In this document: positions 1-53,641 of the stretch, in pieces
How the letters are laid out: each line of letters starts with the position of its first letter
How positions within the stretch are numbered: the stretch's first letter is position 1
Assembly: GCA_023898465.1 (NCBI GenBank)
Contig: CP060223.1
Coordinates: 224,001 to 288,000 of the forward strand
DNA from: Candidatus Nomurabacteria bacterium
Lineage (GTDB): Bacteria > Patescibacteriota > Patescibacteriia > HK-STAS-PATE-3
Length of the DNA stretch: 64,000 nucleotides
Direction: 5' to 3'
The notes under the pieces: generated by a model
Told to the model about the DNA's origin: nothing
The model's database searches: none
Seen by the model: the letters and a program-made list of their open reading frames with translations, nothing else
Position numbers and translations under genes: made by a program

Positions 1-111
1 TGTATGATTATGATGCTAATATTGGAGCGCCACCGCTTTGTATCGATGAAAGTCTGCCTTGTGAAGTAAGCTAATTACAAAATGGAAATGAAAGGGGGTG
101 AGACAGAAAGA

Positions 112-666
112 ATGAAAAAAGGATTCACACTTATTGAGCTCTTGGTCGTGATCGCGATCATCGGTATTTTGTCTGCAATTGGGCTCGTCTCACTAAACGG
201 TGCACGTGAAAAGGCCCGTGACGCCCAAGCCAAGTCTGACCTTGGTCAGATGCGAACTGCTTTGACCTTGTTTGCTGATGATAATGGTGGAGAGTATCCG
301 GGAGAAGGTACAAACGGACAGCCAGATGCTAGCGGCACGGGATCTGGCGGAGGGCTTGGTGTATGGGCTGCCAGTGGGGCAATAATAGGCCCGTATCTTA
401 GTTCTGAACTAGAGTCACCTTCGAGCACTAGCTATAGTTATCTCTCAAACAGCGGAGCTGCACCTGACACTACAGGAACGGATTTCGTTTTGTATTATCA
501 GTTAGAGTCAGGCGCAGGTGATCATATCTACTCACTTTTAGCTGATGGTACTGTTCGAGACTACGATGACGGGGACACTAACTTACCTTGTTGTCAGAAT
601 GATGCGCTTTGCCACTATAATGACCCTGACCCGTTGCCGACAGATGCTTCTTGCGATGGAAGCTAG
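112..666 (+). CDS. type IV pilin / pseudopilin with prepilin-type N-terminal cleavage-methylation motif
   Basis: N-terminus MKKGFTLIELLVVIAIIGIL has the canonical G|FTLIE prepilin motif followed by a hydrophobic helix. The ORF in the track starts at 82, but ATG at 112 gives the canonical short leader. Confidence 0.8.
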   Translation: MKKGFTLIELLVVIAIIGILSAIGLVSLNGAREKARDAQAKSDLGQMRTALTLFADDNGGEYPGEGTNGQPDASGTGSGGGLGVWAASGAIIGPYLSSELESPSSTSYSYLSNSGAAPDTTGTDFVLYYQLESGAGDHIYSLLADGTVRDYDDGDTNLPCCQNDALCHYNDPDPLPTDASCDGS

Positions 667-687
667 TTAGTCAAACACTATGTGTAA

Positions 688-718
688 GAATCAAAAAAGA
701 GCAGAAATGCTCTTTTTT
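688..718 (+). terminator. intrinsic terminator hairpin (aagagca-gaaa-tgctctt) followed by a T-run
   Basis: GC-poor stem-loop immediately 3' of the first pilin gene, followed by TTTTTTG. Confidence 0.5.
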
Positions 719-813
719 GAATTTGGTGTAGCAGGTAGTTCCGGGAGTTTAAGTTATGTAATGCAAGGTGGTTGCCTTGGTGATTTTCGCTATTTCTTGT
801 ATAATAATACTAC

Positions 814-1404
814 ATGTCGAATTCGCTTTATCACGGTTTGCTTAGTCTGATCTTGCTTGCTCCCTACATTGCGACTGTCCAATGGCGGAAAGCGATGAGT
901 CGTAAGATTTTTATTTGGTCAGTCAGCGGTATCATTGTTCTGATGTGTATACAAATGAGTATTCAGAGTGTCCAACTTTGGAATGAATACTCTAACGATC
1001 CGGTTGCCGCCTATTTACTACCACCTCATTCGAATGTCGTTTATTCGCATATTCTGAGATTAGGACAGCCGATACTTGTAGCAGTTATTACCGCACTAGT
1101 TACCTTTTCTGTTCTTTACTTTGCAAAAAAATACTTCCGACTCGGACAGTATGATGCTGAGGATATTCGCTGGTTGAGTTTGTCAGCTCTCTTGAGTTCT
1201 TGGCCAGGCGTCCTTATTACTTTTGTAAGCATATTTCTCATTGCTGTGTTGGCTCAGATAGTACGGGTGCTCATGGCAATGCGTAGTTCAGCTGAGCCAC
1301 CTCGACTTGTCCTCACCCCCTTTGTCGCCCCTGTCACCATTTTTATCCTCTGGTTTCTCCCAGATATTCTCCATGTTACCGGACTTGAAAAAATCCGATT
1401 CTAG
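814..1404 (+). CDS. hypothetical polytopic membrane protein
   Basis: 196-aa ORF with several hydrophobic segments, sited between two pilin genes. No recognisable catalytic motif. Confidence 0.5.
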   Translation: MSNSLYHGLLSLILLAPYIATVQWRKAMSRKIFIWSVSGIIVLMCIQMSIQSVQLWNEYSNDPVAAYLLPPHSNVVYSHILRLGQPILVAVITALVTFSVLYFAKKYFRLGQYDAEDIRWLSLSALLSSWPGVLITFVSIFLIAVLAQIVRVLMAMRSSAEPPRLVLTPFVAPVTIFILWFLPDILHVTGLEKIRF

Positions 1405-1897
1405 AAAAGGATTTACCCTAATCGAATTATTAGTAGTGATTGCAATTATCGGCATACTTTCGGGTATTGGTATTACACAATTTAATAAGTCGCGCGAAAA
1501 AGCACGTGATGCACAACGTAAATCAGACCTGGCGAATATTAGATCCGCACTATTGCTTTATTATGATGATTACGATTTTCTTTATCCAACAACCGTGACT
1601 GTAGGTGCACCGGACGCTTCCTTAGACGGCGTAGGTGTATTTGATGCGGATGAGGGCAATAATCCAATAGTACCCGAATATCTTGCGTCTGTGATATTAC
1701 CAAAAACTGACGACACCAATCATGAGTATTGGTATGACGCGACTGATGATGGGAGTGCGTATCTTCTGTATACTCATTTAGAGGGAGCTGATACAGACTG
1801 GTATTGGCTTGATTCTAACGGCAAAAACGGTGTTGAGTTAAATGCCAATACCCATACGGCAGATAATTGCAATGCAGGAACTAGCTGTACGTGGTAA
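1373..1897 (+). CDS. type IV pilin / pseudopilin (prepilin N-terminal motif)
   Basis: The ORF contains KGFTLIELLVVIAIIGILSGIG. The true start is probably ATG 1373 or the in-frame TTG 1385, which would give MKKSDSRKGFTLIEL. The upstream part of the track ORF overlaps the preceding gene. Confidence 0.75.
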   Translation: MLPDLKKSDSRKGFTLIELLVVIAIIGILSGIGITQFNKSREKARDAQRKSDLANIRSALLLYYDDYDFLYPTTVTVGAPDASLDGVGVFDADEGNNPIVPEYLASVILPKTDDTNHEYWYDATDDGSAYLLYTHLEGADTDWYWLDSNGKNGVELNANTHTADNCNAGTSCTW

Positions 1898-1906
1898 AAT
1901 ACATAT

Positions 1907-2326
1907 ATGGAAAACGCTAAGCAAAAAGGATTAGGACTAATTGAGCTCATTATCATTATCGGCCTTTTTGGCTTATTGATCGTGCTTGGCGTGATAATGT
2001 TAGGGAACGAGCGGGCTCGGACGCGGGATAGCCAGCGTTTGGCTGATATGACACGGGTGCAGGCAGCTTTTCAGCTGCTCTATTACACACAGGCAAGCTA
2101 CGCCGAGGCAGCGGATGGCTGTGATGAGGTGGGGACTGCGGTGGCTGCGTGTGGATTAGATCGCTACCTGAACGGAATTGGTACTTTGCAAGATCCGGGG
2201 TCTTTCTCTTACCGCATTGCCAAAGTGCCGGATGAGCACGGCTACGCGGTTGAGTTTACCTTAGAGCGCGGATATGGCACCCTAGCCCCGGGGTCGCATT
2301 TCTTGACTGAGCAGGGGATTCAATAA
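1907..2326 (+). CDS. pilin-like protein with a degenerate prepilin motif (GLGLIELIIIIGLFG)
   Basis: N-terminus MENAKQKGLGLIELIII retains E at +5 after G, followed by a hydrophobic helix. Confidence 0.6.
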   Translation: MENAKQKGLGLIELIIIIGLFGLLIVLGVIMLGNERARTRDSQRLADMTRVQAAFQLLYYTQASYAEAADGCDEVGTAVAACGLDRYLNGIGTLQDPGSFSYRIAKVPDEHGYAVEFTLERGYGTLAPGSHFLTEQGIQ

Positions 2327-2334
2327 CGATTCAG

Positions 2335-3099
2335 ATGGGGGATATGGACCAAAGCATCGCACTCATTGGCGCTATTGCGGTAGCTGTCTTTGGTTTGATT
2401 ATTGGCAGCTTTTTAAATGCAGCGCTCTGGCGGATGCGGGTACGGCGCTCTTTAGTAAGCGATCGTTCGCGATGTCCACATTGCAAGCACGTGCTTGGTC
2501 CAGCTGAACTCATCCCAGTGTTTAGTTTTTTCTGGCAGCGTGGTCGCTGTCGGCACTGCCGCCGCAAAATTTCCTGGTGGTATCCCGGCATAGAGCTGGC
2601 AACAGCGGCAGTGTTTTGCGTGAACTGGTTTCGTTTTGGTTTATCAACTGAGTTTTTTTACGTCACTGTTATTTCCGCTTTCCTCATTGTCATTTTCGTC
2701 TATGATGCGCGCTACAGTTTAATTCTCGATCGAGTTTCTTTGCCAGGCGCGGCATTGGCCTTCATCGGCAGTTTGTTACTTGGTGTGCCTTTTTGGGACG
2801 TGCTGCTCGGCGCGCTGATTGGTGGAGGATTCTTTTTCCTGCAGTATGTCATTTCCCGTGGTCGCTGGATTGGCGGAGGTGATATGCGTCTCGGGCTGCT
2901 GCTTGGTGCCTTCTTAGCCTGGCCGGAAATTGTCTTTGCACTGTGCCTCGCCTATATATTGGGATCGTTATATGGCATTGGTCTGGTTTTGAGTAAGAAG
3001 AAGTCTTGGCAAAGCGCTATTCCCTTCGGCACCTTTTTGAGTTTAGCAGCATACATTTTTTATTTAATGAGCGATCGTGTCCTTCCATACCTCACCTAA
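2335..3099 (+). CDS. pilD: prepilin leader peptidase / N-methyltransferase (peptidase A24, PilD family)
   Basis: A CxxC...CxxC zinc-binding tetracysteine (CPHCKH...CRHCRR) is followed by polytopic membrane segments and a GGGDMRLG active-site-like motif. Confidence 0.85.
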   Translation: MGDMDQSIALIGAIAVAVFGLIIGSFLNAALWRMRVRRSLVSDRSRCPHCKHVLGPAELIPVFSFFWQRGRCRHCRRKISWWYPGIELATAAVFCVNWFRFGLSTEFFYVTVISAFLIVIFVYDARYSLILDRVSLPGAALAFIGSLLLGVPFWDVLLGALIGGGFFFLQYVISRGRWIGGGDMRLGLLLGAFLAWPEIVFALCLAYILGSLYGIGLVLSKKKSWQSAIPFGTFLSLAAYIFYLMSDRVLPYLT

Positions 3100-3751
3100 A
3101 AAATCGCAGCACGGTTTCACAATGATTGAGCTAGTTGTCTCAATCGCAATTTTTGGCATACTCGCCGGGATTCTTGGTTGGAATTTTAGCCGCTTCCGAG
3201 AAAATGATGATTTACGTCTAGCCGCTGAACAGCTGATGACTGATCTTCGTACTGCGCAAAATACTGCCATGACCGGTCAGGTGATTGATGATCCAGGACC
3301 AGGAGATCCAGCCGTGCCAATTGGCGGCTATGGCATTCATTTTAATCTCAACATAGGCAACAACGAATATTGGATGTTTGCGGATCGAGAGAGTTACAGT
3401 GGGACAACTTGTGTTCCTGTACGCAACGAGCGCTTTGATCAATTAGTAGCCGACCCTCCGAGCACGTGTATGACTGATGGGGTGAATGATGATTTAGATG
3501 CAGCGCCTAATCCGGTACAATTACCCGGCGATGTGATTATTGAAGCCTTGCGAGTAGATGGAACACAAAGCATTACCGACGTGGCCTTTTTGCCTCCTAA
3601 ACCACTCCCTTATGTAGCTTACGGCGATCTGACAAATGCCGCCGTAGCTGGGAAAACTATTGAGATTGACCTCCGTCATACCGTGACAAACCAGCTCCGA
3701 AGGGTTACTGTAGTAGGAGCATCAGGTCAAATAAGTGTCAGCACACCATAA
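3077..3751 (+). CDS. pseudopilin / minor pilin (prepilin N-terminal motif)
   Basis: Contains HGFTMIELVVSIAIFGILAG. The start overlaps the 3' end of pilD. Confidence 0.7.
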   Translation: MSFHTSPKKSQHGFTMIELVVSIAIFGILAGILGWNFSRFRENDDLRLAAEQLMTDLRTAQNTAMTGQVIDDPGPGDPAVPIGGYGIHFNLNIGNNEYWMFADRESYSGTTCVPVRNERFDQLVADPPSTCMTDGVNDDLDAAPNPVQLPGDVIIEALRVDGTQSITDVAFLPPKPLPYVAYGDLTNAAVAGKTIEIDLRHTVTNQLRRVTVVGASGQISVSTP

Positions 3752-3757
3752 TTATCT

Positions 3758-4342
3758 ATGCATCGATTTTCACACAATCAAGAAGGTCAAACCCTGGTCG
3801 AGGTGATTATCGCGGTTTCGATTCTCTTGGCTGGTATTGTTACCTCCTTAACCCTTGGCATTGTGACGGTGCGGGCTGGTCAAGTGTCCCAAAACCGTAC
3901 GATTGCAGATAATCTAGCTCGGGAGGGTTTAGAGTTGGTGCGTACTATGCGCGATACCAATTGGCTGCAGGATAATGTATGGGACCAGGGCTTATGTGCC
4001 TCTGATGACACTACTGCTATTCCAGATTTTTTACCGGATGTAAATGCGTGGAGTCTTGATTTCAGCGTAGATGATTTTGCGGACGCCAATGCACAGGTCT
4101 TATATAGAGAAGATCGAGAAAATTCACTTCGCCCGCTTGATTACTACATGCAAACAGCTGGACCTCGACCGGACGGATCAACGCCGAGTCGCTTCCGTCG
4201 TTTATTAACGATTAGTTCTGATGACGGTAGCTGTGTCGATGCTGATGTCTCGTATACAGTGAAGTCAGAAGTGCAGTGGGATGAGGGTGGAACAACCCAT
4301 TCCTCAATAGTAGAAGAGCGACTCTTTGATTGGAGGACATGA
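3758..4342 (+). CDS. pseudopilin, PilV-like (prepilin motif GQTLVEVIIAVSILLAG)
   Basis: N-terminal G-QTLVE motif plus a hydrophobic helix. Confidence 0.65.
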   Translation: MHRFSHNQEGQTLVEVIIAVSILLAGIVTSLTLGIVTVRAGQVSQNRTIADNLAREGLELVRTMRDTNWLQDNVWDQGLCASDDTTAIPDFLPDVNAWSLDFSVDDFADANAQVLYREDRENSLRPLDYYMQTAGPRPDGSTPSRFRRLLTISSDDGSCVDADVSYTVKSEVQWDEGGTTHSSIVEERLFDWRT

Positions 4343-5175
4343 TGAGGTTGCGACGCTTATTGTATAAGAAAATATTTGCCCGAGAAGAAAAAGGATTCAC
4401 CTTGGTGGAAATTCTCATGGTGCTCGGCATTTTCTCAACCGCACTACTTATGGTGGTGAATATTTTTGTTACCTCGACTCGTTTGCAGCAGCGCACACTG
4501 ACTGCCCAGCGCCTGAGTGCTGATGCGCGATTTACTTTAGAGACCATGGCCCGGGCAATTCGAAGTGGTACGGTTGACTATGATTTTTATCACGCACGAA
4601 CGCCATACGTTTCAACAGAGTACGAGATGAAGATTACCGACCCTAGCTATCCTCTGCATGTGTTGTCAGTTATTGATCCGGATGGAAACCGTACGATTTT
4701 TCGCCGTCAGAGTCTGGATCCGGTAAATGACCCCTGGGGGAATGATAAGAGTGGCGGATTTGAAAAAGTTGGAGACAAGCTAGAAGTATGTTTAGAGAGC
4801 AACCTTTGTATAGATCCAACAGATTATGAGGGTTCCTCAAAAACGCTTTGCAACTCTGACAGTGAGTGCGGAGAGACTGGTGAATCTTGTTTGCTTTCCT
4901 GTAATTACCAAGGTGCTTGGAGCGACATTACTCCAGAGGGCGTCCGTTTAACCGGTGGATCACAACATCCCACCGAGCCCTATGGCTTTAAGGTAACCTT
5001 GACCCCCCCGTATAGTCCTTTCTTAATTCAGAATAATGAAACTGGCGAATATAAAGCTGATGAGCAGCCCCGGGTTTCCATACTCATGATAACCAAGGGC
5101 AATGGCAATGACCAAGATGAGCTGAAAGAAGTGAAATTACAAACAACCGTAAGTACGCGTGTGTATGGACGTTAA
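4330..5175 (+). CDS. minor pilin, PilW-like (prepilin motif KGFTLVEILMVLGIF)
   Basis: N-terminal prepilin motif. The C-terminal part is Cys-rich. Confidence 0.6.
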   Translation: MEDMMRLRRLLYKKIFAREEKGFTLVEILMVLGIFSTALLMVVNIFVTSTRLQQRTLTAQRLSADARFTLETMARAIRSGTVDYDFYHARTPYVSTEYEMKITDPSYPLHVLSVIDPDGNRTIFRRQSLDPVNDPWGNDKSGGFEKVGDKLEVCLESNLCIDPTDYEGSSKTLCNSDSECGETGESCLLSCNYQGAWSDITPEGVRLTGGSQHPTEPYGFKVTLTPPYSPFLIQNNETGEYKADEQPRVSILMITKGNGNDQDELKEVKLQTTVSTRVYGR

Positions 5176-6034
5176 GCAATTTTCACATTCGCAAAAAGAT
5201 GAACGCGGTATCGTGATGCTTTTGTCTTTACTCGTATTAAGCGCCTTAACTGCGGTAGCGATTGGCACCTCGGTGCTGATTATTAAAGAAGTCCAACAGT
5301 CTTCAAACATTGATCGTTCTCTGATGGCCTACTACGCAGCAGAAACGGGAATTGAAAAAGGACTCTACACCGTTAAGATTGGTCGACAGACGAATCAAGA
5401 GCTTGCTGATATTCTCAATGATCTGAATGACGGCGGCGCCATGAGCAATGGAGCAAGCTGGTCAACGGATGAGAGTACCACCAGCGAGGAATATTCCCTC
5501 AGCTCGCTAAAGGAAAATCAATCAACCGTGCTTGATCTCTACGATCCTCTCGATCCAACTGAAGGTGGTTATGAGAGCTTTGGTGTTGAGGCGCTTGATG
5601 CAAAGCCGCTCCAAAATCCAGCTTGGTTGGAAATCAGTTATTTCCCTTGGACTATAAACGGCGGCTTACTTGATTGGGACGATGATAATGTGGAGAAGCG
5701 TCTCCGCTCAGTATATGAAACCCAGCCAAATGTGCCGGCCATCTTTGACCTCTTACCAAATCAAAATTATCGCATCCGCGTGCGGGCGCTCTATGATGAT
5801 CTGCGTAATGTGCGCATTACTGCTTTCACCGAAGATGACCCGACAGATACTGATGTATGTAATCCGGCCTATAGCTGCATAAAGTCGATTCCAAATCGAG
5901 TGTTGATTCGCTCGCTTGGTGCCTCGGGCGGTAACCAGAGTGCCTTATCAGCCTCAGTGCCATATCAAGCGCCAGCCTCTGGTATCTTTGACTTCGTGCT
6001 CTTCAGTGAGCAGACGATTGATAAGAGGACCTAG
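5159..6034 (+). CDS. PilX-like pilus assembly / minor pilin protein
   Basis: The N-terminus ERGIVMLLSLLVLSALTAVAIGTSVL resembles the PilX N-terminal domain. It is the last gene of the pilin cluster. Confidence 0.55.
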   Translation: MCMDVKQFSHSQKDERGIVMLLSLLVLSALTAVAIGTSVLIIKEVQQSSNIDRSLMAYYAAETGIEKGLYTVKIGRQTNQELADILNDLNDGGAMSNGASWSTDESTTSEEYSLSSLKENQSTVLDLYDPLDPTEGGYESFGVEALDAKPLQNPAWLEISYFPWTINGGLLDWDDDNVEKRLRSVYETQPNVPAIFDLLPNQNYRIRVRALYDDLRNVRITAFTEDDPTDTDVCNPAYSCIKSIPNRVLIRSLGASGGNQSALSASVPYQAPASGIFDFVLFSEQTIDKRT

Positions 6035-14100: not shown

Positions 14101-14265
14101 ACGCTAAAAATAGCGAAATTTGTCAAGCGTATGAACCCCCTCCGTATTGGCCTCGGACAAAATCGAGGTCAGTGCGGAGGGGCGCACATTGAGAATTCAT
14201 CTCGTGTATGTTACTCCGGCTTGCTTCGACGGAAGTAGGTCTAGACCAAACGTTTGGGGGAAGAA

Positions 14266-15516
14266 ATGCAAAGCAAGGGTTTCTGGTTCACGTTGATCAT
14301 GACCAGCTTGGTCATGTTGCTTCTCTCCGCGGCTATGGCGCAAGCCACGTCGCAACCGATGATTCCGAGGAGCCTCCTGGCAACCCCTTGGCACACTGCC
14401 GAGGACGCGAGTGGCGATCTCATCGTCACTACCCAGGATTCCGACATCAACGGTATCTGGTCTTCGTCTCACGCAGACTCGTCTGCCGAGGCCGTGGCTA
14501 TGTGGGCGGACATCGTCGCCTACAACAAGCAGCATGGAATGACTGGGAAGGACTTCACCCGGATGATTCCGGGCGAGACCACCTACCGTGTGCCTGTCTG
14601 GCGGGCGGAGCAGTTCAAAGCGTGGTACAAGTCTCGCAACAACGTGCCGACGGCCACGTCTGCAATCGAGTCTGCTCCGGAATCGACCAACCCTGGTCGC
14701 GGATTCCCAGGCTTCCTCGGCGGTCTACTGGCTGCTGGAGCTCTGGTCGGTGCGACTACTCTCGGAACCCGGCAACGGAGGCGCTTGCTTCAACCGTCCA
14801 ACGCAAACCCGATGCGGCAAAGCCCGCTCGAGAATGTCGAGGACGCGGCGACAGAGGTTCGGGAGCAGATCCTGGCCTTCAGTCGTCTCAACCCCACGTC
14901 TCCGGAATCTCTGGTGAATCCGGAGGAATGGACCATCGTCAGCGCTGTCCGTGGCCTCGGTAACGGGGCGGTCGAGTCCCACTTCAGCAACGGTTCCACG
15001 AGGAAGGAGAACTTCCACAACGAGCCGTGCTACGAAGTGACGGCGCGCAACACTTCGGGTGAGGAGCGCAAGTTCTACATCCGGATCAAGTGCGCGAACC
15101 AGCTCACCGGCCTGACGGGTCAGTTCGGGCTCGACGACTTCACCTTCACTCCTGGAGGCGATGCAGTCGAGCTGAACATGCCTTTCGTACCCGCCGCTGA
15201 CCCCACCCCCGCCACCACTGCTACCGCTGACTCGACTCCGGCTGCTACTTCGACCGAAAGCGCTCCTGCGCCGACGGACGAAGCTGCTCCGACCGAGGCT
15301 GCTCAGGTTCCGGCCGAGACCGAGGCAGATCTTGACCTGGTCAAGATCGAGGCTCTGGGCGAGGGTCAGTTCCGGATCACGCGATCTGGACAGCCCCTCG
15401 AAGTGAATGGTGACTACATCACCATTACTAGCTGGAAGGGCTTCAGCTTCTTTCATCGGGGGAATGAGACCCTGGTGATTCCGCCGAAGTCCACCGACAC
15501 CACCCCGCAGGCCTAA
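14266..15516 (+). CDS. secreted protein with Thr/Pro/Ala-rich linker (G+C-rich gene, probably horizontally acquired)
   Basis: Signal peptide MQSKGFWFTLIMTSLVMLLLSAAMAQA|TS. The low-complexity linker PTPATTATADSTPAATSTESAPAPTDEAAPTEAA is typical of high-GC Gram-positive secreted proteins. Codon usage is G/C-rich, unlike the flanking sequence. Confidence 0.6.
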   Translation: MQSKGFWFTLIMTSLVMLLLSAAMAQATSQPMIPRSLLATPWHTAEDASGDLIVTTQDSDINGIWSSSHADSSAEAVAMWADIVAYNKQHGMTGKDFTRMIPGETTYRVPVWRAEQFKAWYKSRNNVPTATSAIESAPESTNPGRGFPGFLGGLLAAGALVGATTLGTRQRRRLLQPSNANPMRQSPLENVEDAATEVREQILAFSRLNPTSPESLVNPEEWTIVSAVRGLGNGAVESHFSNGSTRKENFHNEPCYEVTARNTSGEERKFYIRIKCANQLTGLTGQFGLDDFTFTPGGDAVELNMPFVPAADPTPATTATADSTPAATSTESAPAPTDEAAPTEAAQVPAETEADLDLVKIEALGEGQFRITRSGQPLEVNGDYITITSWKGFSFFHRGNETLVIPPKSTDTTPQA

Positions 15517-45462: not shown

Positions 45463-46470
45463 ATGAACCGCCTGTTTGTCGTACTCGCGCTGATCACCAT
45501 CGGGGCTCTGGGTTTTGTTGGCTGCGGCGGTAAGGACGCCGCTACGAAGCCGGAAGAAATCCGCAGTCCAGATCAGATCGTGCAGTCTGAGATTGTCTAT
45601 ACCGTGAACCCAGACTACTCAGGGGTGAATGTTTCGTGGAAAACAAACATCCCGACAGTTGGAAGGGTGTACTATGGTAGGACTCCTCAACCAACTGACT
45701 ACGTCATCGAGGAGGTGAGCACTACTCAACATTTGTTGTGTGCACCTCGACTCAGGGGAGATGCGCTCTTCTACTTCCAAGTGCAATCATCCTTTTCCGA
45801 GGAAGTGATTAGCGCTCGGGAACCGAGCGAAGGCGATACACTTCGCACCCCACGATGGGTTGATTGGTCTCCACCTACCGTAAGATGGGTCGATCCTCGA
45901 GAAGGCGCAATAAAGGGCGGGACGATTGATCTCACTGTTTCGGCAAACGAATACGTTGTCAACGGGGTGGTAGAGGTGAAATTCTTTATCGATGGCAGGG
46001 TCATCGCTGTAGTGACTGAACCCGATGACGGTGATAAGATCTTCGTCGTGCATGACTTCAATACTACCCAGCTCACCGATGGCTTGCATAGCTTTCACGC
46101 GTTGGCAACAGATGTAAACGGTAACAGAGAGTCAAGGGGAATTACGGTCGACATCGACAACTCGAAGCCGGTCATCTATCGATGGGATGCTCCGAGAAAT
46201 CAGCGGGAGATCGGGAATTCTATCAATTTGCGAGTGGTGGCTCAGGACTTTCGTGGTGAACACGTCGATGATGTGTACATCACCCTCGATGGTCAACCAT
46301 TTGCGAGGCTTGAGGTGTGTGAACTGCGAGCTAGCGGCGTAGGAGATGTGTGGTGTAGAGACGTTGATACGTCGACGCTGTCACCCGGTCAGCACTACTT
46401 CGGTGCCGTTTCAGTAGATCATGCTGGCAACGAGTCAGATCCGGTCTACATCGGCGTCATCAAGCAGTAG
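45463..46470 (+). CDS. lipoprotein with Ig-like/FN3-like beta-sandwich repeats (G+C-rich)
   Basis: Lipobox LGFVG|C. Repeated beta-strand-rich segments (VNVSWKTN...VYYGRTPQ, IDLTVSANE..., FHALATDVNGN..., FGAVSVDHAGNES) typical of Big/FN3 folds. Confidence 0.5.
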   Translation: MNRLFVVLALITIGALGFVGCGGKDAATKPEEIRSPDQIVQSEIVYTVNPDYSGVNVSWKTNIPTVGRVYYGRTPQPTDYVIEEVSTTQHLLCAPRLRGDALFYFQVQSSFSEEVISAREPSEGDTLRTPRWVDWSPPTVRWVDPREGAIKGGTIDLTVSANEYVVNGVVEVKFFIDGRVIAVVTEPDDGDKIFVVHDFNTTQLTDGLHSFHALATDVNGNRESRGITVDIDNSKPVIYRWDAPRNQREIGNSINLRVVAQDFRGEHVDDVYITLDGQPFARLEVCELRASGVGDVWCRDVDTSTLSPGQHYFGAVSVDHAGNESDPVYIGVIKQ

Positions 46471-46569
46471 CCTTTCCAGTCCGTCAGGAATCCAACAGAG
46501 CCTGGGATCATCGATCTCGGGCTCTTCTCTTTTTGATACGCTCCAGAATGAAAAAGTGAAGTTTACTAT

Positions 46570-46894
46570 TACTTGACAACCCACTTCACAGGAGTACACT
46601 AAATGCACAATTGGTGGCGATCTCTGCCTGGCACTGACCAGGATGTCTGGAGACGCCATGTTTTTGTATAGGCGTATTCCACCCTCCCTTGCCGTGGCGT
46701 TGGGGAGCGCGGAATAGTTCCGGGCTTCATTTCCTCACATGAGGAAAGCGGCTTTGTTGCCGTTTTGCACTTTGAAATGCATGGAGGTTCGCCATGACTT
46801 GGCGTTTCCGACTCTTCCTGCTCATGGCCATCGCGTTGACCATGACACCCCTCGCTTTCATGACCGGCTGTCAGGAGCTGCCGACGGAGGGGGA
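46570..46894 (+). repeat. direct repeat copy B of the promoter/leader/signal-peptide cassette
   Basis: See copy A. This copy lacks the segment of about 94 nt. Confidence 0.85.
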
Positions 46895-47492
46895 GACTTC
46901 GGTGATCTCTGATGAGTTGCCGGATGCTTCACCCTCAGCTCAGTCAAGCCCGATGACTTGGCCCTCTTCGATCCAGGATTTCAAACTCCCTTATGATGGG
47001 ATCCGGGATGCATGCGGGGGTCAGATTTGGAAGGTTGTTTGCGGGTACGGATGTGGTTATCATCACAACACAAACTACATGGCCGCCGCGTACCATTCGA
47101 TTGATCTTGTACGGCAGGATGCGCCGACCACTCATAGCGCAGTACTCGCTCCGGCGCGTGGCATCGTTTCGTTTGTCGGATGGAGGAATGGGTACGGTTG
47201 GTGCGTGGAGATGGATCATCGAAACGGCTGGAAGTCGCTTGTGGCCCATCTCGAAACGGATCCTTGGGAATTCGTCCATACCTATGACGACCTGCGGCAG
47301 GGGACTTTCCTGGGCTATGCAGGGAACAGCGGAGCGAGTACGACACCCCACATTCACTTCTCGGTGTGGCGGAACAACGTCACTCATACGCTCGATGGCG
47401 TATCGTTGATCAACCCGCGTCTAAATGGGCGATACAATTCCGGCAATGATTATGTTGCGCCACCGACGGGAAATCCGAACCCGATTCCTTAA
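46794..47492 (+). CDS. lipoprotein peptidase M23 family (LytM/lysostaphin-like peptidoglycan endopeptidase)
   Basis: Identical signal peptide and lipobox to the 43291 gene. HSIDLV (HxxxD) and TPHIHFSVW (HxH) are M23 zinc ligand motifs. Confidence 0.7.
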   Translation: MTWRFRLFLLMAIALTMTPLAFMTGCQELPTEGETSVISDELPDASPSAQSSPMTWPSSIQDFKLPYDGIRDACGGQIWKVVCGYGCGYHHNTNYMAAAYHSIDLVRQDAPTTHSAVLAPARGIVSFVGWRNGYGWCVEMDHRNGWKSLVAHLETDPWEFVHTYDDLRQGTFLGYAGNSGASTTPHIHFSVWRNNVTHTLDGVSLINPRLNGRYNSGNDYVAPPTGNPNPIP

Positions 47493-48940: not shown

Positions 48941-49600
48941 ATGTTAGGTTATCTTTTGCTCATTATATCGGTTGTAGAGTTTTTTATTGGCCTGTACCTT
49001 ATTTTTCGCTATGAAAAAAGCCAGGCAACAACATATTACGGTCTCTTTGCAATAAGTGTTGCGATCTATGTTGCCGCGAACGGTTTCGGATTTACCCGAG
49101 CTTCTGATAACGAGTTTATTTTTGAGCAACTTGCTTGGTTTGGCGGCTTACTTAGCGCCCCATTTATCCTTGGCTTCAGTTATAGCTTTCCTAGCCCTAA
49201 AAAATATCCCACTGAGCTATTTCCGTGGGTAATTTGGCCAGTAGTGTTATTTGGCGCAGGAATTTTTACTTCAAATATTTTCCTGGAGAAAACGTATATT
49301 TATTCCTTTGCCGAAGGCTACACTGCGCCAATCGGTGTCTTTTTCTGGTTCGCCATTGCAGTATTTGCGATGTATTGGATATGGGCAATACGAAACCTGC
49401 TGTATACGAGATTGCACACAAGCGGTTTTTATAGGAATTTTCTTACCATTGTGCTCATAGGGCTTTTTTCATCACTGCTTATTTCAGCAATTTTTGATAT
49501 TTACATTCCCTTAGTTTCAGTCACGCGCTACGGATATATTGGAGCATTATTCTCGTCTATTTGGCTGTTTACTACCGCGTATTTAATGGTGAGGAAGTAA
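48941..49600 (+). CDS. standalone 7TM membrane protein, paralog 1 (homologous to the HisKA_7TM-type N-terminal sensor module of the downstream histidine kinase)
   Basis: 219 aa, about 7 hydrophobic helices. Conserved blocks (N/R)xFLxIxLIGLxxSLL(I/V)S and GY(I/M)G(A/P)L(F/A)SSIWLF...YL(M/I)(V/L)RK are shared with the other paralogs and with HK residues about 190-230. Confidence 0.7.
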   Translation: MLGYLLLIISVVEFFIGLYLIFRYEKSQATTYYGLFAISVAIYVAANGFGFTRASDNEFIFEQLAWFGGLLSAPFILGFSYSFPSPKKYPTELFPWVIWPVVLFGAGIFTSNIFLEKTYIYSFAEGYTAPIGVFFWFAIAVFAMYWIWAIRNLLYTRLHTSGFYRNFLTIVLIGLFSSLLISAIFDIYIPLVSVTRYGYIGALFSSIWLFTTAYLMVRK

Positions 49601-49601
49601 G

Positions 49602-50261
49602 ATGATTGGATATATATTACTCATTATCTCAGTTGTTGAAGTAATACTCGGTTTTTATTTGATTTTTCGATATGTAAAAAGTCCAGCAACTATATATTAC
49701 GGCCTATTCGCGCTAAGTGTAGCACTCTATGTAGGTGCAAACGGGTATGGTTTTAGTCCGTTTTCAGAAAATGATATATGGCTGGAAATAATTGCCTGGA
49801 TTGGCGGGACCTTTACCGCTCCTTTTATTCTTGGCTTCAGTTACTCATTCCCTTATCCACGTAAGTCCAATAAGGAAATACTGTCTTTAGTTCTTAGTCC
49901 ACTCGTTTTTTTCTTCGTCGTAATACTTTTTTCTAATACTTTTGTAGATCATAATAGTGTTATCAGCTTTGATGAAGGATTTCAAAGACCTGTCGGGGAG
50001 TTACACTGGTTTGTATTATCAGTATTCTTTTTCTATTGGGTTTGGTCTTTTATTGAACTAGTAAAGAGTCGAAAAAAATCCGACGGCTTTAATAAGAATT
50101 TTCTTCTTATTTTAATTATAGGCTTAGTTTTTTCTTTGTTGGTTTCGGTATTTACTAACATCATTCATCCACTTGTCGATGTTTCAAAGTTAGGTTATAT
50201 GGGCCCCTTAGCCTCTTCAATCTGGCTATTTATTACTGGGTACTTGATATTGAGGAAGTAA
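49602..50261 (+). CDS. standalone 7TM sensor-module paralog 2
   Basis: 219 aa. Starts 1 nt after the paralog 1 stop, with an RBS aggaag. About 60% identical to paralog 1 by eye. Confidence 0.7.
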   Translation: MIGYILLIISVVEVILGFYLIFRYVKSPATIYYGLFALSVALYVGANGYGFSPFSENDIWLEIIAWIGGTFTAPFILGFSYSFPYPRKSNKEILSLVLSPLVFFFVVILFSNTFVDHNSVISFDEGFQRPVGELHWFVLSVFFFYWVWSFIELVKSRKKSDGFNKNFLLILIIGLVFSLLVSVFTNIIHPLVDVSKLGYMGPLASSIWLFITGYLILRK

Positions 50262-50932
50262 TGAACACCTTTCATTTAGTTTTACTTTTTACACTTTTCT
50301 TTATTCACGCGACTCTCGCAATATGGATGTTGCGTAGATATGTGCAGACGCTATCCATTCGTTATTACTCAGGCTTTTTATTTGGACTAGCACTTATTGC
50401 ACTATTAAATGGTTTATTGCTGTTATTTGGCGGTCAGGAGAGTCAAACAGTCCTTCATAAGATCGGCTTTATCTCAGGCACCTTCACTTTTGTGATGTTC
50501 TTTATGTTTAGTAAGTACTTTCCAATTTCTACTGCAAGACCAAACTCCCGCGACATTCTTTTTTGGGTAATTCCGATTACATTTTTTATTCCATTCATAC
50601 TTTTTAATCAGCAGTTTATCCAGTCTGTGATTATAGAAAATGGAATAAGTAAGCCTACATTTGGAGTCTGGTATACACCATTTATGTTAGTTTTGGCCAC
50701 CTTTGTTCTGGGGGCTATCTATAATCTCATACAGAAATATAAAATAACCACTGAACTTGAAATTAGGAAGAACATTAGAGACATTACGGCAGTATTTTTC
50801 GTATCAGGACTCCTTGGCTTTTTGTTGGACGTTGTGTTGCCAAGGTTTAATGTTTATACGGCACATTACTTTGCCATTGAATCTTCACTTTTTGTTGCGC
50901 TAACTACTGCAATTATTATTGCAAAGAAGTAA
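50261..50932 (+). CDS. standalone 7TM sensor-module paralog 3 (divergent)
   Basis: 223 aa. TAATG stop/start overlap with paralog 2. Confidence 0.65.
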   Translation: MNTFHLVLLFTLFFIHATLAIWMLRRYVQTLSIRYYSGFLFGLALIALLNGLLLLFGGQESQTVLHKIGFISGTFTFVMFFMFSKYFPISTARPNSRDILFWVIPITFFIPFILFNQQFIQSVIIENGISKPTFGVWYTPFMLVLATFVLGAIYNLIQKYKITTELEIRKNIRDITAVFFVSGLLGFLLDVVLPRFNVYTAHYFAIESSLFVALTTAIIIAKK

Positions 50933-50933
50933 G

Positions 50934-51605
50934 ATGAAAGAGTTTCTCATCATTGCAAATTATCTGGTTGGAATAGGGGAGTTGATGCTCGCTGGATATT
51001 TTTGGAAAACAAACAGCGGCAGCGCAATTCGGAAGGTGATGGTGTTGTTGGCGTTTTCGACTGGTATGTGGGTCATTTTTACCGGAACCTTTACCTACCG
51101 CTGGATTTTGCTTGATTACTTTGATCTCGGCATATCATTTGTATATTTCTTTGGAATTTTGTTCCTTACCGCCTTACTTCATTTAGTAATTCTCTTTCCT
51201 CACAAGATTTTCCCGTTTGATAGGCTACATACAGTTTTGTTGTATATTCCAACACTCATATTAGGTTTTGCCGCTTTTACTCCAGCGATAATTAAAGAAA
51301 ATATCACTCCGTCGAGCGGGTATACCACAAGTTATCCCGGACCAGCACATTGGATGTTTAATAGCTATCTTTTTCTCATGTATGCAATGGTGATAATCCT
51401 ACTCATTGTTAAGATCAAGCGTTTTGATGGATTTAGCAGAGATAACGCAAAAACTTTGCTTTGGGGTATTATTTTAGGCGGCCTACCCATCGTTTTCTTA
51501 GATTTGGTTTTGACAACTTTGGGCATCTACCCAAATGCTGCCGTTGCCAGCCTTTTCACAGTTGTCTGGCTTGGGTTTACTACTTACATAATTGTACGGA
51601 AATGA
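50934..51605 (+). CDS. standalone 7TM sensor-module paralog 4 (divergent)
   Basis: ATG 50934 lies 1 nt after the paralog 3 stop. The track ORF at 50919 uses an upstream TTG. C-terminus ...YIIVRK. Confidence 0.65.
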   Translation: MKEFLIIANYLVGIGELMLAGYFWKTNSGSAIRKVMVLLAFSTGMWVIFTGTFTYRWILLDYFDLGISFVYFFGILFLTALLHLVILFPHKIFPFDRLHTVLLYIPTLILGFAAFTPAIIKENITPSSGYTTSYPGPAHWMFNSYLFLMYAMVIILLIVKIKRFDGFSRDNAKTLLWGIILGGLPIVFLDLVLTTLGIYPNAAVASLFTVVWLGFTTYIIVRK

Positions 51606-52288
51606 ACGGAGAAATAGTATTTTTTGATTTAATTTTACTTAGCGTTGTTGGATTATTAGAATTAGCCTTTGGGATTTATTTAATAGTCCGTTATGTGAGG
51701 ACAAGTTCGATAGTATTTTTTGCACTTTTCGTTTTCTTTCTTTCTTTGTGGGTGCTTACAAATGCGGCTGCTTTCGTAATACCAATACATAATGTCTTCT
51801 TTGATATTGATTCAAAGTTGAGTTTTGTTTTTGCAATATTACTTTTTCCAGCGCTATACTTATATGTAATTAATTTTCCCATCCCTACAATATTAATAAA
51901 TTGGCGTTTAATACTTTTTGTGTTTACTGCGCCAATACTTCTTAGTACAATGATTTTAGGGTCGGGAACGGTTGTATTTGGATTTGATAAATTGATAGAG
52001 AATCAGCCAACTATATTTGGAGAAGCTTTTTGGGCCTATTCTTTTTATATGTTGTTCATGTATGCAATTATTTTATTTGAATTAATAAGGCAGATTAATA
52101 AGTCCAAGGGTTCTCACAGATGGTATGCACAAATTTTATTTTTTGCTGTTTTCATTTCTGGCGCAATAGGGCTATTATTTAATCTTGTTCTGCCTTCGAT
52201 GTTCGATATTAGAATTGCTTATTGGATAGCCCCATCTAGTTCAATTATTTGGCTTGCTCTTGTTTGGTGGGCGACGCAGAGGAAATAA
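51602..52288 (+). CDS. standalone 7TM sensor-module paralog 5
   Basis: ATGA start/stop overlap with paralog 4. Conserved YLIVRYVRTS and C-terminal ...WWATQRK. Confidence 0.65.
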   Translation: MNGEIVFFDLILLSVVGLLELAFGIYLIVRYVRTSSIVFFALFVFFLSLWVLTNAAAFVIPIHNVFFDIDSKLSFVFAILLFPALYLYVINFPIPTILINWRLILFVFTAPILLSTMILGSGTVVFGFDKLIENQPTIFGEAFWAYSFYMLFMYAIILFELIRQINKSKGSHRWYAQILFFAVFISGAIGLLFNLVLPSMFDIRIAYWIAPSSSIIWLALVWWATQRK

Positions 52289-52290
52289 TT

Positions 52291-52959
52291 ATGGATTATG
52301 GTGTATACTTATTATTAGTTATTGCGGGCCTAGAACTTTGGTTGACAATATACATATTTACTCGCTACCAAAGAACAAAAGCTATTTTTTTCTTTGGACT
52401 CTTTACTGCTTGTGTGACTGGATGGGTGCTAACTAATTCTATTCCGCTTCTTTTTTCCTATTCAAGTTGGCAATCTGATTTTTTGCAACGCCTCTCGTTT
52501 TCTTTTGCTGCATTTATTTTTCCTTTTCTTTATTATTATATTCTTTTACATCCATTTCCAAGCATTGATATCAACAAGCGATTCATATTATTCACATCCC
52601 TCCCGGCCTTCTTTGTTTCTATTGCCACTCTCTTTGATAAAAACTTTGTTATAGGATTCTATGATACCTCAGTAAGGGCAACAATATACGGCGACTCTTT
52701 TTGGATGTATGCGGTAGTTATGTTGCTATTTGCAATTCTTATTCCTGTGGAAATAATTTTAAAAAGAAGAAGACTGGATGGATATTATCGCTACCAATTC
52801 AAATTATTATTCAGCGCCTATTTGTTTTCAGCGGCAGTAGGATTACTAATTAATTTAATATTGCCATATTTTTTCGACTTAAAAATTAACTATTGGCTTG
52901 GGCCCGCGTCATCGATTATTTGGGTGAGTATGGTTTGGTGGGTTATTAATAGAAGGTAA
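52291..52959 (+). CDS. standalone 7TM sensor-module paralog 6
   Basis: Starts 2 nt after the paralog 5 stop. C-terminal WLGPASSIIWVSMVWWVINRR matches the HK GFGPLSTLFLLFFISYAIIRHR block. Confidence 0.65.
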   Translation: MDYGVYLLLVIAGLELWLTIYIFTRYQRTKAIFFFGLFTACVTGWVLTNSIPLLFSYSSWQSDFLQRLSFSFAAFIFPFLYYYILLHPFPSIDINKRFILFTSLPAFFVSIATLFDKNFVIGFYDTSVRATIYGDSFWMYAVVMLLFAILIPVEIILKRRRLDGYYRYQFKLLFSAYLFSAAVGLLINLILPYFFDLKINYWLGPASSIIWVSMVWWVINRR

Positions 52960-52981
52960 TGTTTAATTGCGATTTTCAAAA

Positions 52982-53641
52982 ATGACAATAGGACATGTAG
53001 TTGAAGAATTTAAAAGTCGGTATATTAAAAGACAACTAGATCATAATTTTATTGTTTTAGAGACTCAAAATAACAACCAACTAAATTTATCATATAGATT
53101 AAGATACGAAGTATATTGTCTAGAATGTAAATATTTAGACGTGAATAATTATCCCAATAGGTCTGAAAAGGATGAGTATGATGATTGTTCAATACATTTC
53201 ATCGCAATAAATAAAAAGACAAAAAATGTTGTTGGCACAATTCGACTTATTAAACGCACTAATAGGAATTTGCCAATAGAGCATGATTTTGGAATTTCTC
53301 TGAATGGATCAATTAGTTCTAAAAAAGTTGTGGAGATTTCTAGACTAGCGGTTGATAAAAAATTTAGGAAGTCGAGTTTAAAGCATCCAAGTATTATGTT
53401 AGGTTTATTAAAAGCATGCTATAGATACGCCGAAGAAAATGGAATTGCAATGTTTGTAGCGGCAATAGATCAAAATGTATATAATATGTTAAAAAAGTTT
53501 CGTTTTTCATTTAATTTATTAGGGGAACCAAAACATTATATGGGTTCAATCTCAGTACCCGTGTTAATTGATATCGAAAAAGAATCGCAGTGGTTAAAAA
53601 TAGTAAATCCTGGACTATGGACATTTCTTTCAAGCAATTAG
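52982..53641 (+). CDS. GNAT-fold N-acyltransferase resembling LuxI/FeeM-type autoinducer / N-acyl amino acid synthases
   Basis: LRYEVYCLECKYL...EKDEYDDCSIHFIAINKKTKNVVGTIRLI...LPIEHDFGISL...VVEISRLAVDKKFRK follows the R.EVF...E.D.YD...(Y/H)(L/F).A......G..RL.P......E..F...E.SR.AV pattern of the Autoind_synth/Acetyltransf_5 families. Confidence 0.5.
   Translation: MTIGHVVEEFKSRYIKRQLDHNFIVLETQNNNQLNLSYRLRYEVYCLECKYLDVNNYPNRSEKDEYDDCSIHFIAINKKTKNVVGTIRLIKRTNRNLPIEHDFGISLNGSISSKKVVEISRLAVDKKFRKSSLKHPSIMLGLLKACYRYAEENGIAMFVAAIDQNVYNMLKKFRFSFNLLGEPKHYMGSISVPVLIDIEKESQWLKIVNPGLWTFLSSN

What the first reader, a model, noticed from the sequence alone, without database searches (positions are those of the whole stretch)
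82..6034. Compact type IV pilin/pseudopilin cluster (seven pilin-like genes + pilD + PilX-like) without assembly ATPase or platform genes
Seven ORFs carry prepilin N-termini (G|FTLIE variants), interleaved with the A24 prepilin peptidase whose 3' end overlaps the next pseudopilin. The last gene has a PilX-like N-terminus. No pilB/pilT/pilC/pilM-Q are present here. In CPR episymbionts type IV pili are implicated in host attachment and DNA uptake. The diversity of the pilin globular domains (Cys-rich, Trp/Asp-rich C-termini) may reflect host-contact specificity.
Basis: partly seen in the sequence, partly recalled or inferred. Interest (0 to 1): 0.5.

Follow-up and report, generated by a model that had tools for sequence, protein, structure and literature searches.

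The report
Window-cut end of a pilus operon
This is the pilin-and-peptidase half of an ordinary, complete type IV pilus operon of an ultra-small (CPR/Patescibacteria) bacterium; its motor and platform genes sit just beyond the left edge of the window, so the cluster is not a machinery-less oddity.

Summary
The pilin observation is real. Six ORFs between 82 and 5175 (+ strand) carry a class III (prepilin) signal peptide: G, then four residues, then E5, then a hydrophobic helix. None occurs elsewhere in the 64 kb, and shuffles give 0.04. A bifunctional-type PilD (2335-3099) sits among them, and a GspK/PilX-type protein without E5 ends the row (5165-6034). The count is six plus the PilX-like protein, not seven plus one. 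ORF 814-1404 is not a pilin.

The interpretation "without ATPase or platform genes" is a window-edge artefact. The source is a 1.08 Mb Candidatus Nomurabacteria MAG whose NCBI protein accessions run in gene order. PilT is USN53717 and PilC is USN53718. USN53719 is the gene cut by window position 1, and ORF1 is USN53720. Three syntenic relatives show pilM-N-O-pilB-response regulator-pilT-pilC-pilins-pilD-four minor pilins, followed by the same housekeeping genes.

The one mildly new element is ORF 814-1404. It belongs to a small family with a confident A24 (FlaK/PilD) fold, but only one of the two catalytic aspartates is conserved.

Verdict: a new member of a known kind, of low interest.

The parts
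3..74 (+). 3' end of the gene cut by the window edge (NCBI USN53719 by accession order). Probably another ORF1-type pilin.
   Evidence: The translation ...YDYDANIGAPPLCIDESLPCEVS* ends with an acidic stretch plus C-x6-C-x3, like the C-termini of ORF1/ORF3 and their orthologues. It lies between PilC (USN53718) and ORF1 (USN53720). L010 has two pilin genes at this position. The identity is inferred; the gene could not be fetched.
112..666 (+). ORF1, candidate major type IVa pilin (NCBI start 112, leader MKKG|FTLIE; the ORF is open from ATG 82).
   Evidence: N_methyl 35.6 bits; weak N-terminal GspG and PilA hits. USN53720. Highest Gly/Ala/Ser/Thr content (41%) and 4 Cys near the C-terminus. Helix 88-93% identical and head 37-39% identical to orthologues. 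A terminator-like hairpin follows.
691..720 (+). Terminator-like hairpin plus T-run after ORF1 (possible attenuator after the major pilin gene).
   Evidence: 13-pair stem followed by a T-run. This is a consensus match only; function is inferred.
814..1404 (+). ORF2, a five-helix membrane protein with an A24 (prepilin peptidase/FlaK) fold that lacks the catalytic dyad. Conserved inside the operon.
1373..1897 (+). ORF3, second ORF1-type pilin (leader MLPDLKKSDSRKG|FTLIE). Overlaps the ORF2 end by 32 nt.
   Evidence: N_methyl 36.5 bits. Start and overlap read from the sequence. C-terminal C-x5-C and a Trp/Asp-rich tail. Orthologues 50-53% identical.
1907..2326 (+). ORF4, small pilin-like protein (G|LGLIE; mature 131 aa).
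   Evidence: N_methyl 14.9 bits, below the cut-off, but found by the motif scan. Orthologues are 59-71% identical and carry G|L(T/S)LIE. USN53723 = H6760_00955.
2335..3099 (+). PilD, bifunctional-type prepilin peptidase.
   Evidence: A24_N_bact 103 bits and Peptidase_A24 52 bits. D124, the GGGD183 motif and C47/C50/C72/C75 are invariant in the alignment. NCBI USN53724 'prepilin peptidase'.
3077..3751 (+). ORF6, first minor pilin (GspH/FimU-position; G|FTMIE). The GTG start overlaps PilD by 23 nt.
   Evidence: N_methyl 36.5 bits; GspH N-terminal hit E 9e-8. The profile matches solved structures only in the pilin N-helix. The public gene call at 3122 removes the cleavage site.
3758..4342 (+). 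ORF7, second minor pilin (PilV/GspI-position; G|QTLVE).
   Evidence: TIGR02523 PilV E 7.9e-7, below its cut-off; N_methyl 20.9 against a cut-off of 21.2. G|Q(T/S)(L/M)(I/L/V)E is conserved in the orthologues. USN53726.
4339..5175 (+). ORF8, third minor pilin (PilW/GspJ-position; G|FTLVE), with a six-Cys insert.
   Evidence: N_methyl 23.1 bits; weak ComGD and GspI/H N-terminal hits. Six Cys at mature positions 132-169. USN53727, 278 aa. The start overlaps the ORF7 stop.
5165..6034 (+). ORF9, GspK/PilX-type last minor pilin without E5, with a beta-sandwich (jelly-roll-like) head.

Best explanation
Window 1-6034 is the distal part of one long, conserved type IVa pilus operon of a Patescibacteria (Candidatus Nomurabacteria) genome.

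The part inside the window encodes the filament subunits and their processing enzyme:
- two to three ORF1-type pilins (ORF1, ORF3 and probably the edge-cut gene), with ORF1 the likely major subunit;
- a small pilin-like protein (ORF4);
- the bifunctional-type prepilin peptidase PilD;
- a four-gene minor-pilin set in the canonical H-I-J-K / FimU-PilV-PilW-PilX order. Its last member lacks Glu5 and carries a beta-sandwich head, as expected for the subunit that caps the tip complex.

The motor and platform genes lie immediately upstream, outside the window: pilT and pilC are shown, and pilB plus pilM-N-O are inferred from synteny.

Inferred mechanism, taken from established type IV pilus biology:
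1. Prepilins insert in the membrane.
2. PilD cleaves after the conserved Gly and probably methylates the new N-terminus.
3. The four minor pilins prime assembly on PilC and end up at the tip.
4. PilB polymerises ORF1-type pilin and PilT retracts the filament.

The operon also encodes ORF2. This is an A24-fold membrane protein without the catalytic aspartate pair, most likely a non-proteolytic accessory that handles pilins or PilD in the membrane.

Which of adhesion to a host cell, twitching or DNA uptake the pilus serves cannot be decided from sequence.
For: Signal peptides: six, clustered and far above chance.

PilD: both domains, both Asp and the Cys4 site are present.

Operon structure: genes from ORF2 to ORF9 abut or overlap, by 32, 23, 4 and 11 nt.

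Source genome: P0001 is 100% identical to ORF9 and is H6760_00980 on a 1,082,586-bp contig.

Accession order on that contig:
- USN53717 PilT/PilU ATPase
- USN53718 T2SS-F/PilC
- USN53720 ORF1
- 53721 ORF2
- 53723 ORF4
- 53724 PilD
- 53725 ORF6
- 53726 ORF7
- 53727 ORF8
- 53728 ORF9
- 53729 metallophosphoesterase
- 53730 LigA
- 53732 GatA

Synteny:
- L007: PilB-RR-PilT-PilC-pilin-ORF2like-pilin-ORF4like-PilD-3 minor pilins-PilXlike-Metallophos(-)-LigA.
- L009: the same from PilC onward.
- L010: PilM, two PilN/O-position genes and a 96-aa gene, then PilB-RR-PilT-PilC and the same row.
- All window proteins have their best hits at the matching positions.

Literature:
- PilB/T/C/M/N/O/D and pilins co-localise in numerous CPR genomes, and PilQ is absent (PMC6744442).

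ORF2.
Against: - The DNA left of window position 1 could not be fetched. The NCBI contig is not in the position index, and the GTDB and JGI scans found only 41%-identical relatives. Adjacency of pilT/pilC therefore rests on accession order plus synteny, not on reading the sequence.
- PilB and PilM-N-O of the source genome were not identified directly.
- Assignment of ORF6-8 to individual H/I/J roles rests on order, size and N-terminal similarity only. Profiles hit solved structures only in the N-helix, or not at all.
- The ORF9 fold match to GspK is not the top hit, and the model is of moderate confidence.
- No expression or filament data exist.
Confidence: 0.9

Rival explanations
1. A stand-alone, machinery-less pilin/pseudopilin island. 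The pilins would be serviced in trans by ATPase and platform genes encoded far away, as with the fimU-pilVWXY1E operon of Pseudomonas.
For: No T2SSE, T2SSF or PilM family protein is encoded in window 6-64 kb. In more distant relatives (Magasanikbacteria L002, and L003) only pilin-PilD is seen next to LigA. In L002 it is preceded by a large 413-aa ORF that I judged PilM-like by eye (no family search was run on it) and a response regulator, with no ATPase in the 10 kb fetched.
Against: PilT and PilC carry the accession numbers three and two places before ORF1 in a numbering that follows gene order for 11 calibrated window proteins. Three relatives with identical downstream synteny have pilB-RR-pilT-pilC directly upstream. 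The cluster starts 81 nt from the window edge, and another gene is cut there.
Confidence: 0.04
2. A type II secretion pseudopilus (GspG-H-I-J-K with GspO), as the NCBI product names 'type II secretion system protein' suggest.
For: NCBI names ORF1, ORF6 and ORF8 'type II secretion system protein'. There are weak N-terminal hits to GspG/H/I/J models. The gene order resembles gspG-K.
Against: All Gsp hits lie far below the curated cut-offs and cover only the shared N-terminal helix. A PilT/PilU retraction ATPase sits in the operon. PilM_2 is upstream in relatives. No secretin appears in any fetched locus, and PilQ is reported absent from CPR, which appear to lack an outer membrane (PMC6744442).
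Confidence: 0.03
3. A dedicated competence (Com-type) pseudopilus used only for DNA uptake, like the comG operon of Firmicutes.
For: There are weak hits to ComGC/D/E/F models. The envelope is monoderm-like. DNA uptake via PilB/C/M/T plus ComEC is the role usually drawn for Patescibacteria (PMC11809585; PMC6744442).
Against: The hits are below cut-off and N-terminal only. The pilins are 160-180 aa with C-terminal disulfide loops, much larger than ComGC, whose NCBIfam model is only 84 positions long. PilT and PilM-N-O-type genes accompany the operon. In Saccharibacteria the analogous locus makes true pili used for twitching and host binding (PMC11623550). DNA uptake remains a possible function of the same T4aP, so this is a rival about function rather than about kind.
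Confidence: 0.03

Closest known systems
Type IV pilus locus T4P-1 of Saccharibacteria Nanosynbacter lyticus TM7x (PMC11623550 / PMC12206443)
   Different: It belongs to a different class of Patescibacteria, and no sequence comparison with the TM7x proteins was possible here. The operon here has two to three ORF1-type paralogues plus ORF4, a response regulator between pilB and pilT in the relatives, and the ORF2 A24-fold protein, which the paper does not mention. No experimental data exist for this lineage.
Co-localised CPR type IV pilus gene sets described by Meheust et al. 2019 (PMC6744442)
   Same: PilB, PilT, PilC, PilM, PilN, PilO, PilD and pilins co-localise, and PilQ is absent. L010 and L011 show exactly this.
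   Different: That work defines families, not this operon's order. The minor-pilin tetrad and the ORF2 family are not singled out in the passages read.
fimU-pilVWXY1E minor-pilin operon (Pseudomonas T4aP) and gspHIJK (T2SS)
   Same: Four consecutive minor (pseudo)pilin genes of increasing size. The last lacks Glu5 and has a GspK/PilX-type N-terminus.
   Different: There is no PilY1-like adhesin gene. Similarity is limited to the N-terminal helix. The genes lie in the same operon as the major pilin, PilD and the motors rather than in a separate locus.
Peptidase family A24 (PilD/FlaK GxGD aspartyl proteases), as comparator for ORF2
   Different: ORF2 has no N-terminal methyltransferase domain and no GxG before the Asp. 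The first catalytic Asp is not conserved, and the protein falls below the Pfam threshold.

Membership tests
Type IV pilins (class III signal peptide proteins) | Leader ending in Gly(-1), Glu at +5, then about 20 hydrophobic residues | tested here: met
   Met by six ORFs. Pfam N_methyl is above its cut-off for ORF1, 3, 6 and 8, and just below for ORF4 (14.9 bits) and ORF7 (20.9 against a cut-off of 21.2). ORF9 has Gly(-1) and the helix but Leu at +5, as in GspK/PilX.
Type IV pilins (class III signal peptide proteins) | A cognate A24 prepilin peptidase with two catalytic Asp (and a Cys4 methyltransferase domain) encoded in the genome | tested here: met
   PilD 2335-3099: A24_N_bact plus Peptidase_A24. 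D124, GGGD183 and C47/C50/C72/C75 are invariant.
Type IV pilins (class III signal peptide proteins) | Actual cleavage, N-methylation and assembly into a filament | not testable with these tools
   Needs biochemistry or cryo-ET.
Type IVa pilus system (retractile; PilB/PilT/PilC/PilM-N-O) | Platform protein PilC and retraction ATPase PilT encoded with the pilins | tested here: met
   USN53718 (T2SS-F family, 80% identical to L009 PilC) and USN53717 (PilT/PilU) are on the same 1,082,586-bp contig, numbered directly before the window's genes.
Type IVa pilus system (retractile; PilB/PilT/PilC/PilM-N-O) | Assembly ATPase PilB and alignment proteins PilM-N-O | tested here: inconclusive
   Present directly upstream in L007 (PilB) and in L010 and L011 (PilM_2, two further genes, PilB).
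Core minor pilin tetrad (GspH-I-J-K / FimU-PilV-PilW-PilX) | Four consecutive minor pilin genes, the last lacking Glu5 | tested here: met
   ORF6-ORF9 are tightly packed and ORF9 has Leu at +5. The same four genes occur in L007, L009 and L010.
Core minor pilin tetrad (GspH-I-J-K / FimU-PilV-PilW-PilX) | Globular domains homologous to GspH, GspI, GspJ and GspK | tested here: inconclusive
Type II secretion system | Outer-membrane secretin GspD and GspC/L/M with the pseudopilins | tested here: not met
   No such gene in the window or in L007, L009, L010 and L011. PilQ is reported absent from CPR (PMC6744442).
Peptidase A24 (for ORF2, 814-1404) | A24 membrane fold | tested here: met
Peptidase A24 (for ORF2, 814-1404) | Two catalytic aspartates, the second in a GxGD motif | tested here: not met
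   Only position 117 is always acidic (49 D, 5 E of 54) and it aligns with the GGGD Asp, but its context is LDxxD without glycines. No acidic column reaches 45% in residues 1-113. ORF2 is therefore not filed as an A24 peptidase, only as A24-like.
Peptidase A24 (for ORF2, 814-1404) | Score above the Pfam Peptidase_A24 gathering threshold | tested here: not met
   The window protein has no hit. 4 of 54 family members have weak hits, best E 3.9e-5.

The most novel reading that the evidence does not exclude
ORF2 (814-1404) may represent a small, Patescibacteria-restricted family of A24-fold pseudo-peptidases embedded between pilin genes of the T4P operon. Having lost the catalytic dyad, it would act as a non-proteolytic membrane partner. 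It might hold prepilins or PilD, or hand the non-canonical, E5-less PilX-like subunit to the machine. Alternatively it could be an unusual one-Asp peptidase for that subunit. Either would be an accessory component not described for type IV pili.
Probability: 0.3. Interest if true: 0.45.

Novelty: new member of a known kind. Interest (0 to 1): 0.2.

Why it matters
Mostly as a caution. A feature that starts 81 nt from a window edge cannot be called 'lacking' its partner genes. Here the motors and platform are the very next genes.

Biologically, the operon is one more complete type IV pilus system of an uncultured CPR bacterium, with a clear division into major-type pilins, PilD and a four-gene tip set. 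Pili in this group matter for host attachment, twitching and DNA uptake.

Two small practical points follow:
- The public annotation mis-starts one minor pilin (USN53725), deleting its cleavage site, and labels the pilins 'type II secretion system protein'.
- The operon contains a conserved A24-fold protein without the catalytic pair, which could be tested cheaply for a role in pilin processing.

Tried and rejected
Attempts to fetch the upstream DNA, none of which reached the left flank:
- Exact-protein look-ups with ORF1 (two starts), PilD, LigA, P0001 and P0022 returned only short Logan contigs (1.8-8.5 kb) or nothing.
- Scans of GTDB genomes and JGI metagenomes with PilD found only 41-42%-identical Magasanikbacteria-type loci.

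Other dead ends:
Rejected: no signal motif and five predicted helices.
- I considered that ORF2 is a second active prepilin peptidase. Rejected as unlikely because only one acidic position is conserved.
- I tried to assign ORF6-9 to GspH/I/J/K by profile search of solved structures. Only N-helix matches or none came back.
- The afdb50 fold library was unavailable.
- Hypervariability of the pilin heads was tested against three relatives and found only for ORF1/ORF3-type pilins, to the usual degree.
- The promoter scan was uninformative: 10 found against 10.7 expected.


Full report
**What is in the sequence.**

Between 82 and 6034 the + strand carries nine closely packed ORFs. Six have a class III (prepilin) signal peptide: a basic leader ending in Gly, Glu at +5, then a hydrophobic helix.

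| ORF | Coordinates | Cleavage motif |
|---|---|---|
| ORF1 | 82/112-666 | G\|FTLIE |
| ORF3 | 1373-1897 | G\|FTLIE |
| ORF4 | 1907-2326 | G\|LGLIE |
| ORF6 | 3077-3751 | G\|FTMIE |
| ORF7 | 3758-4342 | G\|QTLVE |
| ORF8 | 4339-5175 | G\|FTLVE |

- A regular-expression scan of all six frames of the 64 kb finds exactly these six and no other. 100 codon shuffles average 0.04.
- Pfam N_methyl passes its cut-off for four of them and narrowly misses for ORF4 and ORF7. In those two the motif is conserved in the orthologues.
- ORF 2335-3099 is a bifunctional-type PilD. It has A24_N_bact and Peptidase_A24, with both catalytic Asp and the four Zn-site Cys invariant among relatives.
- ORF9 (5165-6034) starts RG|IVMLLSLL, with Leu instead of Glu at +5, followed by AYYAAETGIE. 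That is the GspK/PilX style.
- ORF 814-1404 is not a pilin.

The count is therefore six canonical prepilins plus one PilX-like protein, not seven plus one. PilD does overlap the next gene by 23 nt, but only with the GTG 3077 start, the sole start that keeps the cleavage site. Public gene calls use ATG 3122 and lose it.

**The left edge.**

The cluster begins 81 nt into the window. Positions 3-74 are the end of another gene...YDYDANIGAPPLCIDESLPCEVS*. Its acidic stretch and C-x6-C-x3 end resemble the C-termini of ORF1, ORF3 and their orthologues. The cluster therefore continues to the left, and the window cannot speak to what lies there. Downstream, 6-64 kb holds housekeeping genes and no T2SSE, T2SSF or PilM protein. 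These include LigA, GatCA, EF-G, EF-Tu, the ribosomal protein/SecY block and DnaB.

**Where the window comes from, and what is upstream.**

- ORF9 is 100% identical to H6760_00980 of a Candidatus Nomurabacteria MAG, on a contig of 1,082,586 bp. That contig could not be fetched (scans found only distant relatives).
- Its NCBI protein accessions run in gene order. Eleven window proteins give USN53720 (ORF1), 53721, 53723, 53724 (PilD), 53725, 53726, 53727, 53728 (ORF9), 53729, 53730 (LigA) and 53732 (GatA), with the missing numbers fitting ORF3 and GatC.
- Searching with the PilC and PilT of relatives returned the source genome's own copies, on the same 1,082,586-bp contig. PilC is USN53718 and PilT/PilU is USN53717.
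- So pilT, pilC and one more gene (USN53719, the edge-cut one) directly precede ORF1.

**Synteny.**

Homologues of ORF9 and PilC led to three loci with the same downstream genes: metallophosphoesterase on the minus strand, LigA, GatC, GatA, a response regulator and NDK.
- L007: PilB, response regulator, PilT, PilC, pilin, ORF2-like, pilin, ORF4-like, PilD, three minor pilins, PilX-like.
- L009: starts at PilC and continues identically.
- L010 (a 1.03 Mb genome): adds PilM, two PilN/O-position genes and a 96-aa gene before PilB. It has two pilin genes after PilC, as inferred here.
- L011: has pilM to pilC and one pilin, then a Y1 transposase breaks the row.

Every window protein finds its best match at the corresponding position. 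This agrees with the published statement that PilB/T/C/M/N/O/D and pilins co-localise in numerous CPR genomes and that PilQ is missing (PMC6744442). It also matches the T4P-1 locus of Saccharibacteria TM7x (PMC11623550). The headline 'without assembly ATPase or platform genes' is thus an artefact of where the window was cut.

**Roles of the parts (inferred).**

- ORF1 is the best candidate for the major subunit. It is the first complete pilin after pilC and has the highest Gly/Ala/Ser/Thr content (41%, a criterion used in PMC11623550). It has a C-terminal Cys cluster, and a 13-pair hairpin with a T-run follows at 691-720. It shows the usual pattern of a conserved helix (88-93%) and a diverged head (37-39%).
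- ORF3 and probably the edge-cut gene are paralogues. ORF4 is a short, well-conserved pilin-like protein.
- ORF6-ORF9 form a tightly coupled tetrad in the order and size progression of GspH-I-J-K / FimU-PilV-PilW-PilX.
  - The N-terminal similarities point the same way: GspH for ORF6, PilV for ORF7, and ComGD/GspI/H for ORF8, all below cut-off.
  - The globular parts have no detectable sequence relatives among solved structures.
- There is no PilY1-like gene.

**Diversity claim.**

Against L007 and L009 (LigA 62-64%, GatA 55-59%, PilD 60%), the minor-pilin and PilX-like heads are 41-62% identical. Against L010 (LigA 57%, PilD 45%) they fall to 28-30%. The heads evolve somewhat faster than housekeeping proteins, as pilins generally do, but nothing here indicates unusual hypervariability. 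All mature proteins have an even number of Cys, consistent with disulfide bonds. Host specificity cannot be judged from sequence.

**The one non-routine element: ORF2 (814-1404).**

- It has no Pfam or NCBIfam hit.
- It belongs to a small family: 59 representatives at E<=1e-3 among 1.84 billion cluster representatives.
- Orthologues sit between the pilin genes in L007, L009 and L010.
- A profile of 54 members matches the C-terminal half of the PilD alignment (hhalign 95.9%, E 5.7e-9). It places the family's always-acidic position 117 on the Asp of GGGD and its GWP on PilD's GWP.
- However, the GxG is missing, and no acidic residue is conserved in the N-terminal half, where the first catalytic Asp should be.
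- I therefore read it as an A24-derived, probably non-catalytic membrane protein that works with pilins or PilD. This is inference and untested.

**Rivals.**

- A stand-alone island served in trans is contradicted by the accession order and synteny.
- A type II secretion pseudopilus, suggested by the NCBI product names, is contradicted by PilT, by PilM, by the lack of any secretin, and by hits that are N-terminal only.
- A Com-type competence pseudopilus is a question of function rather than kind. DNA uptake by this T4aP remains possible.

**Verdict.**

The locus is an ordinary, already annotated member of the known CPR type IV pilus operons. Interest is low (0.2). The residual novelty lies in the ORF2 family.

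Noticed in passing
window 48941-58216: A low-GC island (33-36% at 50-56 kb against about 47% elsewhere) holds a run of ~220-aa ORFs. Three are stand-alone 7TM HisKA_7TM-type membrane proteins (48941-49600, 49602-50261, 50919-51605). They are followed by a FeeM/autoinducer-synthase-like N-acyl amino acid synthase (52967-53641), a SAM methyltransferase (53590-54276) and a ThiF-family protein (54239-55021). Then come a 931-aa 7TM-GAF-HisKA-HATPase kinase (54990-57785) and a response regulator (57782-58216). This may be an acyl-amino-acid signalling cassette in a reduced genome.
   Followed up: partly
window 14254-15516: The 14-16 kb stretch has 57% GC and carries a 420-aa ORF. It has a Sec-type signal peptide and a Pro/Thr/Ala-rich tail, with no Pfam hit. 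Long overlapping ORFs on both strands are typical of a GC-rich insert, so it may be foreign DNA.
   Followed up: no
window 3077-3122: The public gene call for USN53725 starts at ATG 3122 (MIELVV...), which removes the leader and the G|FT cleavage site. GTG 3077 restores a canonical prepilin N-terminus conserved in the orthologues.
   Followed up: yes
L007 8916-10004: In this relative the PilW-position minor pilin is called as a 362-aa protein whose first ~94 residues are a GIY-YIG nuclease-like domain. It may be a small separate gene or homing-endonuclease remnant fused by the gene caller, or a real fusion.
   Followed up: no
L011 12089-12544: In this relative the operon is interrupted right after the first pilin by a Y1_Tnp (IS200/IS605-type) transposase. 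PilD and the minor pilins are not nearby, which shows how a split pilus locus can arise.
   Followed up: no
L009 1347-1727: A 126-aa protein with 23S_rRNA_IVP/bAvd hits (a four-helix-bundle protein known from rRNA intervening sequences and diversity-generating retroelements) lies between pilC and the first pilin in this relative. The source genome has the edge-cut pilin-like gene at that position.
   Followed up: no
window 3785 (ORF7 N-terminus): Position +1 after the predicted cleavage site is Gln (G|QTLVE), not Phe/Met/Leu. It is conserved as Gln in all three orthologues. This is an unusual residue for N-methylation by PilD.
   Followed up: partly
window 45463-47492: A Big_7 Ig-domain surface protein (45463-46470) and an M23 peptidase (46794-47492) lie next to several ORFs with no family. 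They are candidate cell-surface or lytic factors of an episymbiont.
   Followed up: no
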